Below the pieces are notes generated by a model. It ran no database searches, was not told the origin of the DNA, and saw only the letters and a list, made by a program, of their open reading frames with translations. A stretch of 64,000 nucleotides of DNA from a virus, in IMG/VR virus record IMGVR_UViG_3300044712_001062, positions 32,001-96,000 of that record; one strand, given 5' to 3'. This document shows, one piece after another, positions 4,308 through 63,732 of the stretch. The number at the start of each line of letters is the position of its first letter. Position 1 is the stretch's first letter. The position numbers and the translations under genes are program-made.

Positions 4308-4382
4308 ATTTGTATGTGCCACAAGGTAACAAGACTACTAAAGCAAGGAGTGGGATCCTTTCTTTATTTGTTTTGTTTAGAG
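4308..4382 (+). ncRNA. Dispersed hairpin-RNA element, copy A
   Basis: TTTATACA 4289-4296, 11 nt, ATTTGTATGTGCC. Hairpin AACAAGAC/GUUUUGUU + UAAAG/CUUUA + AAGGA/UCCUU. Ends GTTTTGTTTAGAG. Confidence 0.7.
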
Positions 4383-5460: not shown

Positions 5461-5524
5461 CTCTAAACAAAACGAAAGAAAAGAAATTTCTTCTTTCTGT
5501 CTTGTTCGTGGGGTACATACAAAT
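5461..5524 (-). ncRNA. Dispersed hairpin-RNA element, copy B
   Basis: Minus strand: TTTATATA (5543-5536), 11 nt, ATTTGTATGTACCC. Hairpin GAACAAGAC/GUUUUGUUU + GAAAGAAGA/UUUUCUUUC. Ends GTTTTGTTTAGAG. Confidence 0.7.
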
Positions 5525-6447: not shown

Positions 6448-9400
6448 TTTAGTTCTCCAAGTTGTAATTTTTTGTCATAAATAAAATAGAGGTGTAATGG
6501 TTATATACTTTTCGATTTTATATAACATTAAGGAGGAATTTAAGGCATAAATTGGCTTCATTATTATCTTTACATTTAAATGATAGGAAATTTGAATCAT
6601 CAATTCTATCAGCGCGGATATAAATATGATCTTCGCGGGTTGATAAGGCCAAGATGTCTGAACGTCTAATTACAATGGTTGTTGGGACTGGTGTATTGGT
6701 AATGTCGAATGTTAACCATTTATCATTAGTTTCGATATTTGCAAATGAAAATTCCATAATTGGTTCTCCAAGTTATAAAGTTGTACATGTATTGATAAAA
6801 ATACAATGTGTATACATGGTAATGAATGGTTACTATGCATTCACGTAGTAATTATGTTCACGGGTTCATTATACTTTTTAAATTTCTTGTTCATCAAATC
6901 TTTCAACATCTTCTTTGTGAAGATAGTATGAAGTATTGATGAATTTTTTAAATGTTTCAAAGTAATCTGGATGAAATGTGATGACTTTAGTAGTATCTGA
7001 ATGTTCTGGGGATTCTTTTACAGTTATTTCAATCATATCTTCATATGTCTGAATTTCAAATTTAAGAGTGCAACCGTAATCAGCATAAATATTATAGTTC
7101 ATAGGGTTCTCCAAGTTATAAAATATAGTTCTTAAAGTATAAAAATCTAATCATTCTATGTAGTTTAATACATGAGATTGTTGCCAGGCTTGAAGATCAA
7201 GGGATTTGCCATTTAAATTGTATAGCGGTTTGAAATTATCGCAGCGGAAAACCTGCAGGATGAATTTTCTATATATAAAATTTTGATCACAATTCTGGCA
7301 TATTTTACAGCATTCAATGGGATATTTAAACATTTAATTTTCCTTTTTTGATTTTTTTAATTGTTTAATGAGGGGTTTTCGCTTTGGCTTATCCATAACA
7401 TACTTGCACCATGTGTGATCGTTTAATTGTTCAATTAGATGCTCACATCCTTCACAATCGTTAATTCGTTGATTTAGTGATCGCATTGGGCAATAAAGGA
7501 TGTGATTGTGGTAAATTTTATTTTCCAACATAGAGTTTATCCAAGTTGATAGTTATTTTGGTTCATAACAATCGGATTCTTCAAGGTTCATATTCGCGTA
7601 TGATTGATTTGTAGATTGTGGGTGTGTCATGTAATTGCGGTAACATGTGGCAAATTTAGGGCAATATACGTTTGTGCATAATGTTAGATCCATAATGGTT
7701 CTCCAAGTTATAGATATATATATGTTTGTTTAATAATTATATTTTTGCTCCATGTTTTGTAATCCACGACGTTCACCAAATGCATCTTTTGGATTTCCTG
7801 ATATAGCATCTGGTAATGTGCAATCTATGTATTTTATATTTGCATTTGGAAATTCTTCTTGCAATGATTCCATTTTGTCAAGTGCCAATCTCCTTCCACC
7901 ACTTATCATTTTTGGATATTTACGAAATTCCATGATTATATTACCATCATAATTATAGAATTTAAAATTTGATATGTAATACCAAGAATATTGTTCATCA
8001 GCGTCATAACTTATAGTTATTTCGTGGCCAATATCTTCGATTCCATTAAAGGAGTCTACAGTATCTCTTATATTTTCACAAACGTCTGACATAGTCGAAT
8101 TTGATAAATTTCGTAGTATGGTTGATAATGATTTTATCATGATAATGATTCTCCAAATTACATTTTTTAAATTTAATAATTTTCACTACTTGTTGTTCTC
8201 ATAAATTCTAATTGACCATCGTTGTTTACGTGTAGATTGGTTTTATGGCATTTACACTGCAGCCAATGATGGTAGAGTAACATTACTTTTAGTTGATCGC
8301 TATTAATCATGTAAGTGGTTTGACATATGGGGCATTTAACTGAAATGACATTTGATGCAAGAATTGGTGTGATTACTGGAATATCATCATACATTTTATA
8401 TTCACCAATCATCATAATGGTGTGTAAATTTCAATGTAAAACTATCTGAATATGTTTTACCTTTCATTTCTTCGATTATCTGTTCACATGCACAAATAAT
8501 AATTTGCTTATGTGCTGTTGAAATATCAATGTTTTCCATAATATATACCATTATAATATATTCACGCCATATCCATAGCCTAATAAGAATGATAATATAC
8601 ATGCCATGATTACCAGGGTAATTGTAAATACTGTCCAATATGGTGAATCATGATCACCAAATGATGTGTGTGATAATTTCGTTATTGGTCCGGGCGTCAC
8701 TTTTTCAGAATTTGCTACAACAGTTTTATAAAATCCTGCAGCATGAACTCTTTTCATTACATTCTCTGGTAAATGTGGATTAGCGTTTTTAATACGATCT
8801 TCCCATTCATCATTTGATATTACACCATATTGTGGACTTGCACAACTAACTGGTGTATTATGTCTATTTGGATCGTCGTTAATCATACTTCCTCAATTAC
8901 TTCTTTTATGTTGATAATTTTCATGATGAATATGCATTGATTTGTTTTTCTAATAATACAATACCACATTGGAATGAACATACTTCATAATCACATGATT
9001 CGATATGACAACAATGAAGGGGTGAATTATCTCTAATTGTAATGGAATTATGCGTGCATTCTTTCTTACAATTATCACATAGAATTTGTCTCATTATAGT
9101 AATTTATAGGGTTTAAAAATATATTAAGGTTTGTAATTGATAATGGCCTTTGTTAATTTTTTGAATCCTGGTGTATCTGAAGTATATGTTATATTCATAT
9201 GTGATTTATTTTTCATCCATGAATCTGAACCTGTAATGCAATCTACAAGTTCAATGAGTTCACCAATAGACATTTGAATAGTAATTTGATTATCAGTCAT
9301 TTTTATAAATTTCCTCGCAATACATTAGAAAGGCATTTGCCAATCCTTCTTCAATGGTATCTGCTTTCATTACAAATTGATGGTATGTTTCTTGAATTTC

Positions 9401-25363: not shown

Positions 25364-26044
25364 TTAATATAAGCGCATTCCATAACACGCAAGAGAATAA
25401 TTACTACTGAATGACGATTTACCAATCACAACCAATTCGATTAAATTATAACCAGCGATTAATGAATTACTTAATGTGACTTCACGCTGTGCATTGGTAG
25501 ATGTTGAGGTATAATCATCATAACCTCCGGAATCCCTTACGCCATTAATATATAAATCATATACTGCACGAGTATTAAATTTATTATTGCTAAAGGATAG
25601 TTTAGTTTCGTTTCCTATTGCGTATATTCTAAATTGATAGCGATCATTGATGGCTGGACTATCCATTATAGTATCATATGATCCAATAGATACTACTTTA
25701 ATAGTGCTATTATTTATGATTTTATTTAATCTTGTTATTGTCCCGGTAACTGGAAGGCAATTATTAGATATATAAGTTCTAATTGCTTTTTCGCTTGGGA
25801 CTTTAAGATCGGTGTTGGTTGATAATGTTCCATCAGTATCCAAATAACTAATTGGCATTTGAGCATCATTAGTAACATTACCAAGCCCTACTTGCGATTT
25901 GGTAACATTATGGGGATTAGTGGTTACATTATCCATATGTCCGGTAGTTTCACTTACCATGTCATTCCAATCACTTGCATTTAAACGACCATTTATAGCA
26001 TCAGTTGGTGCGTTGTCAATTTTAGTAGTTTTCCAAGTCATCAT
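25364..26044 (-). CDS. Tail-fibre-like virion protein
   Basis: NPHNVTKSQVGLGNVTND fibre repeat and DTDGTLS...VPSEKAI motif. Confidence 0.75.
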   Translation of the reverse strand: MMTWKTTKIDNAPTDAINGRLNASDWNDMVSETTGHMDNVTTNPHNVTKSQVGLGNVTNDAQMPISYLDTDGTLSTNTDLKVPSEKAIRTYISNNCLPVTGTITRLNKIINNSTIKVVSIGSYDTIMDSPAINDRYQFRIYAIGNETKLSFSNNKFNTRAVYDLYINGVRDSGGYDDYTSTSTNAQREVTLSNSLIAGYNLIELVVIGKSSFSSNYSLACYGMRLY

Positions 26045-26055
26045 ACACCACCTCG

Positions 26056-35297: not shown

Positions 35298-35373
35298 ATT
35301 TGTATGTGCTACGATGACAAAGCAAAATGGAGAAGGACATAAGGAACCCTTTTCCTTTCTGTTTTGTTAAGGG
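35298..35373 (+). ncRNA. Dispersed hairpin-RNA element, copy C
   Basis: TTTATAAT 35280-35287, 10 nt, ATTTGTATGTGCT. Hairpin UGACAAAGCA/UGUUUUGUUA + GGAGAAGG/CCUUUUCC. Ends GTTTTGTTAAGGG. Confidence 0.7.
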
Positions 35374-35758: not shown

Positions 35759-35834
35759 TCATAACAAACAACAAAGAAGAAAAAGATCTGTTTCTTTTCT
35801 TCTGTGTTATTGGTTACTTGGTGCACATACAAAT
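35759..35834 (-). ncRNA. Dispersed hairpin-RNA element, copy D
   Basis: Minus strand: TTTATAAA (35854-35847), 12 nt, ATTTGTATGTGCAC. Hairpin UAAC-AAUAACA-AGAAGAAAAGA / UCUUUUUCUUCU-UGUUGUU-GUUA. Confidence 0.7.
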
Positions 35835-45000: not shown

Positions 45001-45593
45001 ACATTTCTGTTTTTTACAGCACACATATATCCAAGTATGCATATAAATCCTAATATAGCAGCAATTGATAAATTTGTCCAGAAAAGTTTGTTAATAATTT
45101 CTATCATAGATGTCCTTCGATGAATTCATAAACATCATCATTTGTTTCGATAGGCTCTTCAGAATTTAAATAATCATTGATAATTTCAACAATTTTAGAA
45201 GTTGGAAAATTATTAGATACTAAAGCATTAAGCAATGTATCATGTGTCTCGTAATTCATGATTTAATACTCTGAAAGTTTATCGGGTTCAAAATCGATTA
45301 TGATGTATCCACGTGGGCAATCACCACGTAAGCAACAAGATATATTCCTATAAAATAAATCACAATCATATTCGCATGATTCAAATTTAGCCATAATTTT
45401 AATCCTCATTATTTTTCATTTGAGTTTTACAACCATTATAGTAATATTCATTGAGGTTATCTTTGAATATTATTACTTCATGGCATTTGGAAGGTTTTTC
45501 ACAGATGTAATAGTTGTTTTCTTCTCTCATAGTGTCATTGCATACTGGGCATATCATGTGATACTCCTTGGTTTTTAGAATTTTAAGGGGGTT

Positions 45594-46167
45594 GTTTTCA
45601 AATTTGAGATGTTCAAATGGCTATGCTGAATGTTATTTTTAGGGAGTGAGCCTAAATAATAATTTGGTATTTTTAAATTTAGAAAAGTGAAGTGATCATA
45701 TAGGTGAGTTGATCATATAGGTGATGATCTTATTCGGGATTTAAGATCAGGTGGATTGGGGTCCATTGCGAGTGATGAAAGGTTTAAGGTTTTCAGTATG
45801 GCTTACTGGATGGTGTTTTTACATGGGCATCAGCCATCAGCACAAATTAAGGATTGAACCTTGGAATTTATGAAAATAAGTAAGGGGGTTACTTATTTTT
45901 GACAAAGAAAACGGGACGCATTTGTAGTTTTTAATGAGGATATCAGCCTCCAAAATGTAAGTAGGGATTGAGCCTACGTTACATCGAACACTATGAATTA
46001 GTAATAGGTTTGGTGAGGTGATTGTTTGGTGGTCAATGATAGTTTGTATATTAAGACTTCAGGAGTTATAGTTCATCAATGAGGATCGGTTCACTGATCG
46101 ACTATTAGTTTTTATTCAGGGTTTCGCCTGGACAATTAGAAGTGGAGTGAACCACTATCTAATTACC
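45594..46167 (-). ncRNA. Array of four structured units: T-loop-like long hairpin + short hairpin + UAAAAAC
   Basis: Units at 46106-46167, 45925-45985, 45815-45872 and 45594-45662. Loops GG-UUCACU-CC, GG-CUCAAUC-CC, GG-UUCAAU-CC, GG-CUCACUC-CC. Stems differ in sequence but keep pairing. No long ORF. Confidence 0.6.
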
Positions 46168-46207
46168 ATACACGTAGACATTTCATTTCTATTTTTTTTG
46201 TTTGTCG

Positions 46208-46277
46208 ACATTTGGCATCAGAAAATGAATAGGATAAACATTTTTAGTAATTAATCATTTCATCATTTGCCTAATGT
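46208..46277 (-). ncRNA. Box C/D-like (K-turn) small RNA directly 3' of tRNA-Leu
   Basis: ACAUU-A-GGCA-A-AUGAUGA ... CUGA-UGCC-A-AAUGU: perfect box C and box D in canonical K-turn register with a terminal stem. Confidence 0.65.
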
Positions 46278-46281
46278 TTAA

Positions 46282-46364
46282 TGGGTAATAGCCGATTTGC
46301 ACGGCTGAACTCCTATGAGGCGACATCTTGAGTGTCGTGGGTTTGACTGCTTCCCTAATTACCC
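46282..46364 (-). tRNA. tRNA-Leu(CAA), variant D/T loops
   Basis: GGGTAAT/ATTACCC acceptor stem; GGG/CCC D stem; CGACA-CT-CAA-GA-TGTCG anticodon arm; long variable arm CTC-ATAG-GAG; AGCCG-TGCAAAT-CGGCT T arm; discriminator A; no encoded CCA. Confidence 0.85.
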
Positions 46365-46754
46365 AAAATTTGAGCATTTGGTTGGTTGATGTTCGATACC
46401 TCACACTTTGGAAACAGGTTAGTGTTTCATTGGCCTCTCATCACATGACCAATCCGGGTGAGTATCGGATTTGAAATGATCATGCACATGTGGAGATTGG
46501 TGAACTGACTTCCATTTGTATATGGTTGTTAGTTCCCTGTTATGTATATTGTATGTCAGAGGTTATATACATTTTGGTTGGTAGTTTGAATCTGGGAAAG
46601 TTTGTTTCTTTGATTCGTTGCTACGATACTAATGTTGGTTTGATTAGTATTTATAGTTATGGGATTTATAATTTGTTAAAATTGAGAAGGGTTATCAGTT
46701 TTGAGAAGAGTAAAGGATCTGAAAATGGTGTGATCGCTAATTAGGTTCTCCAAG

Positions 46755-46949: not shown

Positions 46950-47402
46950 TTAAATGTTTGTCTGGTTAGAATTTTTGTAGTTAAGGATCTCTGAATCGCA
47001 AAGTTGATCGCAAATTGAGGTATAGTGATTTTCTCTTGGATTCCATGTGAGGGTTATGTGGGTGTTGGTGAATAGGGCTTGGCCAAGGATGGTGATTGTA
47101 TTGTGGAGTTTTTTTAAGGTTGGATTGTTGATTTTGTAAGAGCCGTTTAGTTGGTTGATTAGTAATTGTGAATCGCTTATGAGGTGGATATCAGTTTCAT
47201 TGGTGATTAGGTGTTTGTTATGCATGAGGTAGGTTAGTGCTTCGATCATGGCTGTGTACTCAGCGATGTTGTTAGTGGTGTTAATGCCTACTATGCCGGA
47301 TGATTGGTGAGCAAGGCGATCATCTATGAGGATTACATAGGCGAATGCTGCGATTCCTGGATTGGGTTGTGCCCCTCCATCTGTGTAGATTTTAAGTGTC
47401 AT
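46950..47402 (-). CDS. rnhA: Ribonuclease HI
   Basis: IYTDGGAQPNPG, TNNIAEY, SDSQLLINQLNGSYKI, PRENxxxxxCDQL: D-E-D-D catalytic set. Confidence 0.92.
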   Translation of the reverse strand: MTLKIYTDGGAQPNPGIAAFAYVILIDDRLAHQSSGIVGINTTNNIAEYTAMIEALTYLMHNKHLITNETDIHLISDSQLLINQLNGSYKINNPTLKKLHNTITILGQALFTNTHITLTWNPRENHYTSICDQLCDSEILNYKNSNQTNI

Positions 47403-50545: not shown

Positions 50546-50620
50546 ATTTGTATGTGCCAAACGGGACAGATGACAAGGAAAGAGGAGAATCATTTCCTTT
50601 TTCCTGTTGTTTGTTTCAAG
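50546..50620 (+). ncRNA. Dispersed hairpin-RNA element, copy E
   Basis: TTTTATAG 50527-50534, 11 nt, ATTTGTATGTGCC. Hairpin GGGACAGAUGACA/UGUUGUUUGUUUC (13 bp, 5 G-U) + GGAAAGAGGAGA/UUUCCUUUUUCC. Confidence 0.72.
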
Positions 50621-50861: not shown

Positions 50862-50924
50862 CTCTAAACAAAACAAAGAAGGAAGGTTTTCCCTTTTCGT
50901 TTTGCTCGTTAGGCACATACAAAT
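50862..50924 (-). ncRNA. Dispersed hairpin-RNA element, copy F
   Basis: Minus strand: TATATAAA (50944-50937), 12 nt, ATTTGTATGTGCCT, purine-rich arm, pyrimidine-rich arm, then GTTTTGTTTAGAG. Confidence 0.72.
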
Positions 50925-55877: not shown

Positions 55878-56088
55878 AATCACCCACCCCTATTTTATTC
55901 CCTGCAAAAAATATGCGCTAATGGTTCTCCAAGTCATTATATACAACCTGAACACCCCCAACCTACCAAACATTTAAATACTTTAACTACCAACATACTA
56001 AATGCAAGGGATGTTGTTAACTGATCCACTAACAAACCCTTAAAATTCGATCATTAATTAATCAATGATCACCAAGGAGCAAATTCAA

Positions 56089-56313
56089 ATGTCAAACGAA
56101 GTATCTTACCCAATCGCAACTACCGAATCAATCATTAAGAAGAATGCAGGCGTTCACCGCATTTCACATGGCGCTGGAGTAAAACTCGCAAGTCTCGCAG
56201 CATCACATATCATCGATCTCGCAACCAAGGCCAACACCGTGGCAACTCACGCTGGACGCACTACGATCCGCGAAGAAGATATCGATGTAGTTCTCGGCCT
56301 CTCCTCAAATTAA
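56089..56313 (+). CDS. Archaeal HMf-type histone
   Basis: YPIATTESIIKKNAGVHRIS...A...ATHAGRTTIREEDI matches the histone-fold consensus LPxAxxxRI..xxxRVS...HAGRKTIKxEDI. AAGGAG RBS before ATG 56089. Confidence 0.9.
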   Translation: MSNEVSYPIATTESIIKKNAGVHRISHGAGVKLASLAASHIIDLATKANTVATHAGRTTIREEDIDVVLGLSSN

Positions 56314-56386: not shown

Positions 56387-56459
56387 AGTCCTATAGTGTA
56401 GTGGCCAACCATACTGGATTTTGAGTCCGGTGACACCAGTTCGAATCTGGTTAGGACTA
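56387..56459 (+). tRNA. tRNA-Gln(TTG)
   Basis: AGTCCTA/TAGGACT acceptor stem (A1-U72, archaeal Gln type); D loop TAGTGGCCAA; CTGGA-TT-TTG-AG-TCCGG anticodon arm; ACCAG-TTCGAAT-CTGGT T arm; no CCA. Confidence 0.92.
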
Positions 56460-58007: not shown

Positions 58008-58078
58008 CTCTAACAAAAACAAAGGAAAAGGAAATGATCTTCCTCTTCTTTTATTCTTGCGTTGGGGTACATACAAAT
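58008..58078 (-). ncRNA. Dispersed hairpin-RNA element, copy G
   Basis: Minus strand: TTTATAAA (58098-58091), 12 nt, ATTTGTATGTACCCC. Hairpin GCAAGAAUAAA/UUUGUUUUUGU + GAAGAGGAAG/UUUCCUUUUC. Ends GTTAGAG. Confidence 0.72.
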
Positions 58079-63653: not shown

Positions 63654-63732
63654 CTCCTTAACAAAACGAAAAAGAAAGTCCGGATCTCATCCCGTCTTCC
63701 TGTTCATTTTGTTGCGTGAGGCACATACAAAT
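63654..63732 (-). ncRNA. Dispersed hairpin-RNA element, copy H
   Basis: Minus strand: TTTATATA (63753-63746), 13 nt, ATTTGTATGTGCCT. Hairpin AACAAAAUGAA/UUCGUUUUGUU + AGGAAG/CUUUCU + GGAU/AUCC. Ends GTTTTGTTAAGGAG. Confidence 0.72.

What the first reader, a model, noticed from the sequence alone, without database searches (positions are those of the whole stretch)
46208..46364. Dicistronic tRNA-box C/D RNA in an archaeal virus
Seen: 4 nt after the tRNA-Leu discriminator begins a stem-closed RNA with a perfect box C (AUGAUGA) and box D (CUGA) in K-turn register, with a possible D' (CUAA) and two ~12-nt guide-length segments (AAUGAUUAAUUA; UCCUAUUCAUUUU). Established: archaeal C/D sRNAs bind L7Ae/Nop5/fibrillarin to guide 2'-O-methylation, and tRNA-snoRNA dicistrons released by RNase Z are known in plants. 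Inference: the virus may hijack host C/D RNPs to methylate or protect RNAs, or titrate L7Ae. The guides can alternatively pair with each other (GAAAUGA/UCAUUUUC), giving only a K-turn hairpin.
Basis: partly seen in the sequence, partly recalled or inferred. Interest (0 to 1): 0.7.

Follow-up and report, generated by a model that had tools for sequence, protein, structure and literature searches.

The report
Kink-turn RNA hairpin after viral tRNA
A tailed virus of methane-producing archaea carries, four bases after an odd tRNA-Leu-like gene, a 70-base RNA hairpin closed by a textbook box C/D kink-turn; it probably docks the host protein L7Ae but does not look like a working methylation guide.

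Summary
On the minus strand, 4 nt after the ARAGORN tRNA-Leu(CAA), lies a 10-position stem (9 Watson-Crick pairs), a 3-nt bulge, AUGAUGA, 38 nt of AU-rich sequence and CUGA, in exact kink-turn register. An equally good arrangement arose in 1 of 1000 simulated genomes. It is the only such element in the 135-kb record.

The virus is archaeal and methanogen-associated.

It fails as a canonical archaeal C/D guide. There is no C'/D' kink-loop, only CUAA and AUGUUUA. The two "guides" can pair with each other. No target better than shuffled guides was found in rRNAs of five Methanomicrobiales or in the virus. Every Rfam C/D hit is below threshold.

It is absent from six related viral records and from pattern scans of two collections. 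No RNA data exist.

tRNA-C/D dicistrons are already known in archaea (PMC3491384, PMC7994747).

Best reading: a tRNA-linked, L7Ae-binding kink-turn RNA of unknown role. This scan's earlier, unchecked AI notes report kink-turn hairpins in other archaeal viruses.

The parts
46282..46364 (-). tRNA-Leu(CAA)-like gene: G1-C72 acceptor, discriminator A73, long variable arm, no encoded CCA. It is aberrant, with T-loop UGCAAAU (G at position 55) and a D-loop without GG.
   Evidence: ARAGORN (46281-46365). No Rfam RF00005 hit at gathering or at E<=10. No host tRNA match in 81 Methanomicrobiales genomes by BLAST.
46278..46281 (-). 4-nt linker UUAA between the discriminator and the closing stem. RNase Z cleavage here is inferred, not shown.
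   Evidence: Sequence. The processing step is inferred from PMC3491384.
46268..46277 (-). 5' strand of the closing (C) stem, ACAUUAGGCA.
   Evidence: Pairs with 46217-46208, 9 of 10 Watson-Crick. Statistics.
46260..46267 (-). Bulge A plus box C AUGAUGA. L1-L3 = A,A,U; G.A and A.G partners; U for the U.U pair; G for the G-C pair.
   Evidence: The consensus RUGAUGA is quoted in PMC5539422.
46222..46259 (-). AU-rich interior: 12-nt AAUGAUUAAUUA, CUAA, AAAUGUUUA, 13-nt UCCUAUUCAUUUU. It has no C'/D' kink-loop. Its ends can pair (GAAAUGA/UCAUUUUC) to extend the helix beyond the kink.
   Evidence: Target searches were negative.
46218..46221 (-). Box D, CUGA.
46208..46217 (-). 3' strand of the closing stem, UGCCAAAUGU.
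46133..46165 (-). Downstream tRNA-like minihelix: an 8-bp acceptor-like stem plus a GUGG-UUCACU-CCAC T-arm-like hairpin, 42 nt after the element. It is a possible 3' processing boundary (inferred).
   Evidence: (150-nt fold, z -3.1).

Best explanation
The element is a virus-encoded box C/D-type kink-turn stem-loop RNA of about 70 nt. It is transcribed as one unit with the tRNA-Leu-like gene 4 nt upstream.

Most likely course of events:
1. The precursor is cut after the tRNA discriminator by host RNase Z, which creates the 5' end of the hairpin RNA.
2. The closing stem plus AUGAUGA/CUGA folds into a kink-turn that host L7Ae binds.
3. The resulting small RNP is a stable 'orphan' C/D-like particle. 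It may act as an L7Ae-dependent stabilising or processing module of the non-coding RNA island, or as an L7Ae sink. It is not a canonical dual-guide 2'-O-methylation RNA.

Shown: the sequence architecture and its improbability by chance, the archaeal (methanogen-related) nature of the virus, and the presence of Nop5 in candidate host genomes. Inferred: transcription, RNase Z release, L7Ae binding and any downstream role.
For: - Exact kink-turn register with 9 of 10 Watson-Crick closing pairs.
- 1 of 1000 simulated genomes reach this, and it is the only hit of a relaxed kink-turn scan in the genome, against a simulated mean of 0.05.
- 13 of 23 weak Rfam hits in a 1.6-kb search, and 32 of 35 in a 211-nt search, are C/D-box families stacked on 46207-46278(-).
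- It has the same strand as the tRNA and the flanking genes, and the reverse strand has no such motif.
- No CCA is encoded, which suits RNase Z.
- Archaeal tRNA-sRNA dicistrons released by RNase Z are documented (PMC3491384; PMC7994747).
- L7Ae binds C/D-like kink-turns outside guide RNAs, for example in mRNAs (PMC5539422).
- Archaeal host: NrdD is 53-56% identical to methanogen proteins. All 10 organism-named hits among the top 120 are Methanomicrobiales. 79 of the 80 best genome loci are methanogen or Methanoperedens archaea.
- Further host evidence: a histone fold, ERCC4 and PolB, and a tRNA-Gln matching 5 of 5 Methanomicrobiales genomes.
- Nop5 is present in 5 of 5 of those genomes.
- The interior lacks C'/D' boxes and has no target, which favours a kink-turn hairpin over a guide.
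Against: - There is no evidence of expression or of a discrete RNA.
- There is no conservation. The tRNA plus element is absent from six related viral records, including the two with an RNase H homologue in the same neighbourhood, and pattern scans gave no homologue. It is therefore a singleton without covariation.
- Folding energy is not exceptional (z -1.4 and -1.7).
- In a 150-nt context the minimum-energy fold uses a competing hairpin (CAUUAGG.AAAUGA with UCAUUU.UCUGAUG) that destroys the kink-turn.
- All Rfam scores are under the gathering thresholds (best 26 bits against 45).
- The upstream 'tRNA' fails Rfam's tRNA model, so RNase Z recognition is uncertain.
- The virus encodes no L7Ae, Nop or fibrillarin of its own (the record is 83% complete).
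Confidence: 0.5

Rival explanations
1. It is a genuine methylation-guide C/D sRNA. It assembles with host L7Ae, Nop5 and fibrillarin and uses one or both 12-13-nt spacers to direct 2'-O-methylation of a host or viral RNA that was not sampled here.
For: - Boxes C and D are perfect, and the C-to-CUAA spacer is exactly 12 nt.
- The tRNA-sRNA dicistron layout matches N. equitans sRNA8 (PMC3491384).
- The host lineage has Nop5.
- The D-side spacer forms a 10-bp run (9 Watson-Crick + 1 G.U, N+5 paired) with 16S rRNA 1174-1185 of one genome, G008. That site sequence occurs in 5 of 401 genomes sampled from the phylum.
- The true host is unknown.
Against: - CUAA and AUGUUUA cannot form a C'/D' kink-loop. 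The abstract of PMC8413462 (listing) calls the archaeal C'/D' pair essential.
- Host-lineage sRNAs have perfect C, D', C' and D boxes.
- The 10-bp rRNA match is equalled by 24 of 150 shuffled guides.
- By pair count, shuffled guides equal or beat the real ones in 32 of 60 and 60 of 60 trials.
- Host-genome matches with at most 1 mismatch number 66 against 65 for the reversed control (D side). For the D' side they number 102 against 40, and none lies in an rRNA operon.
- The virus holds no perfect complement other than the opposite strand of the element itself.
- The spacers are 8-23% G+C and partly complementary to each other.
Confidence: 0.15
2. It is an ordinary spacer or processing hairpin, or an alternative long hairpin, in a tRNA-derived non-coding island. 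The C and D boxes are fortuitous and no L7Ae is involved.
For: - In the 150-nt context the minimum-energy fold is a non-kink hairpin.
- The island is full of hairpins and T-arm-like minihelices.
- The element is a singleton without conservation.
Against: - The combination of exact RUGAUGA, exact CUGA, correct 3-nt bulge register and 9 of 10 Watson-Crick closing pairs occurred in 1 of 1000 simulated genomes.
- It occurred in none of six related genomes.
- The competing fold relies on G.U pairs, and RNAfold cannot credit the G.A pairs or protein binding.
Confidence: 0.2
3. It is a decaying remnant: a host tRNA-sRNA dicistron or a tRNA cluster captured by the virus and now eroding. Neither the aberrant tRNA nor the C/D-like RNA is functional.
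For: - The tRNA-Leu fails Rfam's tRNA model and lacks the G19/U55 elbow nucleotides.
- Several T-arm-like fragments lie downstream.
- Related viruses G003 and G004 carry real tRNA clusters while G001, G002, G005 and G006 carry none.
- The interior of the element has the AT-rich composition of neutral sequence.
Against: - Decay should have hit boxes C and D and the 10-position stem as much as the interior, yet these are perfect.
- No host tRNA-Leu resembling the viral one was found in 81 genomes of the order, so recent capture is not visible.
Confidence: 0.15

Closest known systems
[quoted passage not shown] Source: PMC3491384 and PMC7994747, passages read.
   Same: The C/D-type RNA starts a few nt after the tRNA 3' end on the same strand. 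tRNA 3' processing by RNase Z would create its 5' end.
   Different: The known cases are cellular, have conserved C, D', C' and D boxes (Figure 4 legend of PMC3491384) and are abundant RNAs. This one is viral, lacks C'/D', follows an aberrant tRNA and has no expression data.
Canonical archaeal box C/D sRNAs, such as the TGATGA-12-CTGA-n-TGATGA-12-CTGA sRNA found here in 3 of 5 Methanomicrobiales genomes.
   Same: Box C, box D and the kink-turn register. One nominal 12-nt spacer.
   Different: It has no kink-loop, a 10-position terminal stem (more like eukaryotic snoRNAs, which is where the Rfam sub-threshold hits come from), AU-rich spacers without targets, and a 38-nt interior instead of about 35 nt with boxes.
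Kink-turns bound by L7Ae outside guide RNAs, such as the l7ae mRNA leader and other mRNAs of S. acidocaldarius (PMC5539422, passages read).
   Same: A stand-alone C/D-like bulged and non-bulged strand pair closing a hairpin, with no guide function required.
   Different: Those sit in mRNA leaders or coding regions and regulate translation. This one is 650 nt from the next ORF start and is fused to a tRNA-like gene.
TIGR-Tas systems of phages and archaeal viruses (PMC12045711, passages read).
   Same: Virus-borne RNAs with box C/D-like anchors and dual spacers.
   Different: TIGR needs a Nop-domain Tas protein next to an array of repeated units, and its boxes are CCA/UG without kink-turns. No Nop domain was found in this record and the element is single.
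Plant tRNA-snoRNA dicistrons (Kruszka 2003), seen only as a reference. Epstein-Barr virus v-snoRNA1 is recalled, not searched.
   Same: tRNA-linked or virus-encoded C/D RNAs with a terminal stem and a weak C'/D' pair.
   Different: They belong to a eukaryotic setting.

Membership tests
Archaeal box C/D sRNA (methylation guide) | Box C RUGAUGA near the 5' end and box D CUGA near the 3' end. | tested here: met
   AUGAUGA at 46266-46260 and CUGA at 46221-46218.
Archaeal box C/D sRNA (methylation guide) | Internal C'/D' boxes forming a second kink-turn or kink-loop. | tested here: not met
   Only CUAA and AUGUUUA are present and no tandem G.A is possible. Host-lineage sRNAs have perfect C'/D' boxes.
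Archaeal box C/D sRNA (methylation guide) | About 12-nt spacers complementary to rRNA or tRNA, with the target at N+5. | tested here: inconclusive
   Spacers are 12 and 13 nt. The best rRNA match, a 10-bp run in 1 of 9 rRNAs from 5 genomes, is equalled by 24 of 150 shuffles. No excess appears in host genomes or the virus. The true host is unknown.
Archaeal box C/D sRNA (methylation guide) | Score at or above the gathering threshold of an Rfam C/D family. | tested here: not met
   The best score is 26 bits against a threshold of 45. All hits are sub-threshold.
Archaeal box C/D sRNA (methylation guide) | Assembly with L7Ae, Nop5 and fibrillarin. | not testable with these tools
   Only availability could be tested. 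Nop5 is present in 5 of 5 candidate host-lineage genomes and none of the three proteins is encoded by the virus.
Kink-turn (box C/D type) L7Ae-binding motif | Canonical helix, 3-nt bulge, tandem sheared G.A/A.G, then a non-canonical helix (U.U, G-C). | tested here: met
   Sequence register. Chance 1 of 1000. The positional rules are recalled from the kink-turn literature, and the C/D consensus is quoted in PMC5539422.
Kink-turn (box C/D type) L7Ae-binding motif | Binding by L7Ae and kinked geometry. | not testable with these tools
   No RNA-protein tool was available.
Dicistronic tRNA-C/D sRNA gene | The sRNA lies immediately 3' of a tRNA on the same strand, with no room for a promoter. | tested here: met
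   The linker is 4 nt.
Dicistronic tRNA-C/D sRNA gene | The upstream gene is a bona fide tRNA. | tested here: inconclusive
   ARAGORN calls it a tRNA. Rfam's tRNA model gives no hit at E<=10. The T-loop has G55 and the D-loop lacks GG.
Dicistronic tRNA-C/D sRNA gene | Precursor made and cut by RNase Z. | not testable with these tools
   No RNA run holds the stretch.
TIGR-Tas | A Nop-domain Tas protein beside an array of repeated dual-spacer units. | tested here: not met
   PF01798 was not found in the record at E<=1. The element is single.

The most novel reading that the evidence does not exclude
The virus makes its own box C/D-type RNP RNA. It is punched out of a tRNA-punctuated non-coding operon by host RNase Z and RNase P. 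It uses host L7Ae, and perhaps Nop5-fibrillarin, either to methylate an unsampled host or viral RNA or to draw L7Ae away from ribosome and sRNP assembly. I know of no described archaeal-virus C/D-type RNA. In the paper library, two searches found none. The only paper holding both 'box sRNA' and 'archaeal virus' is the TIGR-Tas paper.
Probability: 0.2. Interest if true: 0.7.

Novelty: new variant of a known kind. Interest (0 to 1): 0.4.

Why it matters
If the RNA is made and binds L7Ae, it would show that archaeal viruses borrow the host's kink-turn and L7Ae recognition system through their own small RNAs. It would also show that they use the tRNA-linked route of sRNA biogenesis so far described only in a few archaeal cells and in plants. 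That would open a testable route to viral interference with archaeal ribosome or sRNP biogenesis.

As it stands, the element is a single, unconserved, unexpressed-as-far-as-known instance. It is a lead rather than a result.

Tried and rejected
- **Homologues by DNA pattern, stem-proximal bases plus boxes in viral contigs.** 6 hits, all in unrelated sequence with G+C 0.39-0.54, and two were duplicates.
- **T-arm plus box C plus box D in metagenome contigs.** 6 hits, 0 of 6 with an ARAGORN tRNA.
- **T-arm 17-mer in viral contigs.** 7 hits, 0 of 7 with a tRNA.
- **Relatives by protein.**
  - The RNase H query gave 2 distant loci whose records are not held.
  - The terminase query gave G001.
  - The NrdD alignment gave G002-G006.
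  - All six records were fetched and scanned. None has the tRNA-Leu or a C/D-like element.
- **Expression.** No RNA holder is listed. The only run is the probable source DNA. Laying it showed one identical contig and no variants.
- **Generic kink-turn scan** (any stem of at least 7, NNN-GA...GA). 294 hits against about 248 in simulations, so it is uninformative.
- **Second C/D candidate at window 25995-26051(-).** It overlaps an ORF start (ATGATGA = Met-Met) and was rejected.
- **The candidate at 6972-7058(+)** dropped out under the narrower gap.
- **Canonical C/D pattern in viral contigs.** 1 hit, on an unrelated contig.
- **Canonical T-loop followed by ATGATGA...CTGA in viral contigs.** 86 stretches, 80 fetched. 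Only 3 have a flanking stem of at least 5, and the best is a G.U/T-run pseudo-stem. No second clear case was found.
- **Viral tRNA-Leu plus element against 81 genomes of the order.** 2 weak hits to the AT-rich interior only.
- **First NrdD scan of genome contigs** found nothing.
- **TIGR-Tas reading** was rejected because no Nop domain was found.
- **Supplements.** Supplementary files of the papers were closed, and Tripp 2017 was not read. Their sRNA tables may list further tRNA-sRNA dicistrons.

Full report
**What is there.** The feature lies on the minus strand, the strand of all neighbouring genes. ARAGORN calls an 85-nt tRNA-Leu(CAA) at 46365-46281. Read as G1-C72 with discriminator A73, it spans 46364-46282 and has no encoded CCA.

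After the linker UUAA comes a 70-nt element at 46277-46208. Its parts, in order:
- ACAUUAGGCA, the 5' strand of the stem
- a single A
- AUGAUGA, box C
- AAUGAUUAAUUA, 12 nt
- CUAA
- AAAUGUUUA
- UCCUAUUCAUUUU, 13 nt
- CUGA, box D
- UGCCAAAUGU, the 3' strand of the stem

The stem has nine Watson-Crick pairs and one A.A. The stem ends, then three bulged bases (A, A, U), then G.A, A.G, U.U and G-C. That is the geometry of the box C/D kink-turn. The box consensus is quoted in PMC5539422. The positional nomenclature is recalled.

**Is it more than chance?** I simulated the 135-kb genome with a first-order Markov model.
- RUGAUGA...CUGA 25-62 nt apart, with at least 9 of 10 Watson-Crick pairs in this exact register, appeared in 1 of 1000 genomes.
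- With G.U allowed it appeared in 11 of 600.
- With three offsets and one mismatch it appeared in 4 of 200.
- In six related viral records, 0 of 61 C..D pairs reached 8 of 10.
- A relaxed kink-turn definition found this element alone in the genome, against a simulated mean of 0.05.
- Rfam gives nothing at gathering thresholds. At permissive E-values, 13 of 23 hits in 1.6 kb and 32 of 35 hits in 211 nt are C/D-box snoRNA families piled on 46207-46278(-). The best is 26 bits against a threshold of 45. These hits are not independent of each other.
- Thermodynamic stability is ordinary (z -1.4 and -1.7).

I conclude that the box and stem arrangement is real design rather than accident. That rests on one sequence.

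**Whose virus is it?** The window is 32001-96000 of a 135,061-bp IMG/VR record that is 83% complete. It carries a tail fibre, a terminase-like gene, PolB, a UvrD-like helicase, RNase H, a RuvB-like ATPase, ERCC4, thymidylate synthase and NrdD.
- An 82-aa ORF at 56065-56313 is a histone fold (PF00808, E 1.4e-8).
- NrdD has unnamed, probably viral, relatives at 58-82% identity. Cellular proteins follow at 53-56%. All 10 hits that carry an organism name among the top 120 are Methanomicrobiales.
- 79 of the 80 best genome loci are methanogen or Methanoperedens archaea. The other is an 11-kb contig in a Saccharibacteria MAG at 74%.
- The viral tRNA-Gln matches tRNAs in 5 of 5 Methanomicrobiales genomes at 73-84% identity.
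- Eight dispersed hairpin genes each carry a TATA box at fixed distance.

The host is therefore archaeal and probably a class II methanogen. The exact host is unknown, and the virus's G+C of 36% is much lower than I recall for most Methanoregulaceae. The only sequencing run that holds the stretch is a rhizosphere DNA run, probably the source.

**The tRNA.** Rfam's tRNA model finds the tRNA-Gln at 56.8 bits. It gives no hit for the tRNA-Leu at gathering, at E<=10 in 1.6 kb, or in 211 nt. Its T-loop reads UGCAAAU, with G where U55 is expected, and its D-loop has no GG. No host tRNA resembled it by BLAST in 81 genomes of the order. It is best called tRNA-like. Acceptor and T-arm, which I recall are what RNase Z reads, are intact.

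**Is it a C/D guide sRNA?** Three defining features were tested.

(i) The C'/D' pair. CUAA and AUGUUUA cannot make tandem G.A pairs. In the same host lineage a canonical sRNA with perfect C, D', C' and D boxes and 12-nt spacers is found in 3 of 5 genomes. The abstract of PMC8413462 (listing only) calls the archaeal C'/D' pair essential.

(ii) Targets.
- Against 4 LSU and 5 SSU rRNAs of five Methanomicrobiales, the best pair counts (11 of 12 with 1-5 G.U) are matched by shuffled guides in 32 of 60 trials (D' side) and 60 of 60 trials (D side).
- The best contiguous duplex is a 10-bp run at 16S 1174-1185 of one genome. Shuffled guides match it in 24 of 150 trials.
- That site sequence occurs in 5 of 401 genomes of the phylum, and no better variant was seen.
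- Whole-genome matches with at most 1 mismatch number 66 against 65 for the reversed control (D side). For the D' side they number 102 against 40, and none lies in an rRNA operon.
- The virus itself has no perfect complement.

(iii) The two spacers can pair with each other, which extends the helix beyond the kink.

The virus encodes no Nop, L7Ae or fibrillarin. The candidate hosts encode Nop5 (5 of 5). The element therefore has the C/D kink-turn but not the rest of a guide RNA.

**Conservation.** None could be shown. G001 (terminase 51% identical) and G006 (NrdD 68%) have RNase H homologues followed by small ORFs. They have no tRNA and no C/D-like element. G003 and G004 have tRNA clusters without such an element. 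Three DNA pattern scans gave only chance hits. A scan for any canonical T-loop followed by ATGATGA...CUGA in IMG/VR gave no convincing second case.

**Context and alternative folds.** The element lies in a 1.4-kb stretch without credible ORFs between RNase H (46950-47402) and a small gene starting at 45557.
- There is no room for a promoter between tRNA and element.
- The nearest TATA-like boxes on this strand lie 180-300 nt upstream of the tRNA. This is my reading.
- No T-run follows the element.
- 42 nt downstream sits a tRNA-like minihelix (46165-46133). This suggests tRNA-style punctuation that could release an RNA of about 116 nt (inferred).
- In that 150-nt context RNAfold prefers a different hairpin that consumes box D. 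A conformational alternative therefore exists. Neither protein binding nor G.A pairs are in that energy model.

**Literature.** tRNA-C/D sRNA dicistrons processed by RNase Z are described for N. equitans, I. hospitalis and T. tenax (PMC3491384 and PMC7994747, passages). The layout itself is therefore known in archaea. L7Ae also binds C/D-like kink-turns in mRNAs (PMC5539422). TIGR-Tas systems put box C/D-like guide arrays into archaeal viruses, but they need a Nop-domain protein (PMC12045711), which is absent here. Two searches found no paper describing an archaeal-virus C/D sRNA or a virus-encoded L7Ae ligand. This scan's earlier AI notes report kink-turn hairpins in other archaeal viruses. 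Those are unchecked leads, not support.

**Verdict.**

| Reading | Probability |
|---|---|
| tRNA-linked kink-turn hairpin RNA that docks host L7Ae, role unknown | about 0.5 |
| True methylation guide | about 0.15 |
| Fortuitous boxes on an ordinary hairpin | about 0.2 |
| Decaying remnant | about 0.15 |

It is a new variant of known kinds. Interest is moderate because the element is a singleton with neither expression nor conservation evidence.

Noticed in passing
window 4308-4382(+), 5461-5524(-), 35298-35373(+), 35759-35834(-), 50546-50620(+), 50862-50924(-), 58008-58078(-), 63654-63732(-): Eight dispersed hairpin RNA genes. Each has a TTTTTATA-like TATA box about 10-13 nt before ATATTTGTATGT(G/A)CC, a purine-rich 5' arm and a U-rich 3' arm. 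I saw no kink-turn in them.
   Followed up: partly
window 46165-46133(-) and further T-arm-like hairpins down to about 45840(-): A tRNA-like minihelix (8-bp acceptor-like stem plus a GUGG-UUCACU-CCAC hairpin) lies 42 nt after the element. GGCUCAAUCCC and GGUUCAAUCC hairpins lie further on. The island may be a punctuated or decayed tRNA cluster.
   Followed up: partly
window 46954-46755(-): A closed RNA with a terminal stem of about 15 bp, flanked by UGAAGA and CUGAU. By my reading the tandem G.A sits in a continuous helix without the 3-nt bulge, so it is not a classical kink-turn.
   Followed up: no
G000:C1:10821-12836 (L019), outside the window: The viral NrdD (671 aa) has no intein. Several close unnamed homologues of 1000-1150 aa carry intein/LAGLIDADG domains (PF14528, PF14890).
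   Followed up: no
L163:14177-14226(-): This is the only exact hit in viral contigs of a canonical archaeal C/D sRNA pattern: perfect C, D', C' and D boxes, 12-nt spacers and a T-run after it. It lies on an unrelated 28.9-kb contig with 51% G+C.
   Followed up: no
L061 (genome contigs): The best NrdD match (74%) is an 11-kb contig binned into a Candidatus Saccharibacteria MAG. It is probably a misbinned relative of this virus.
   Followed up: no
window 56065-56313(+) and 56387-56459(+): A histone-fold gene is followed 73 nt later by a canonical archaeal-type tRNA-Gln(UUG).
   Followed up: partly
L159, L160, L161 (host-lineage genomes G011, G007, G008): A canonical C/D sRNA with nearly identical guides is conserved in 3 of 5 Methanomicrobiales genomes. 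It is useful as a positive control for host sRNA style.
   Followed up: no
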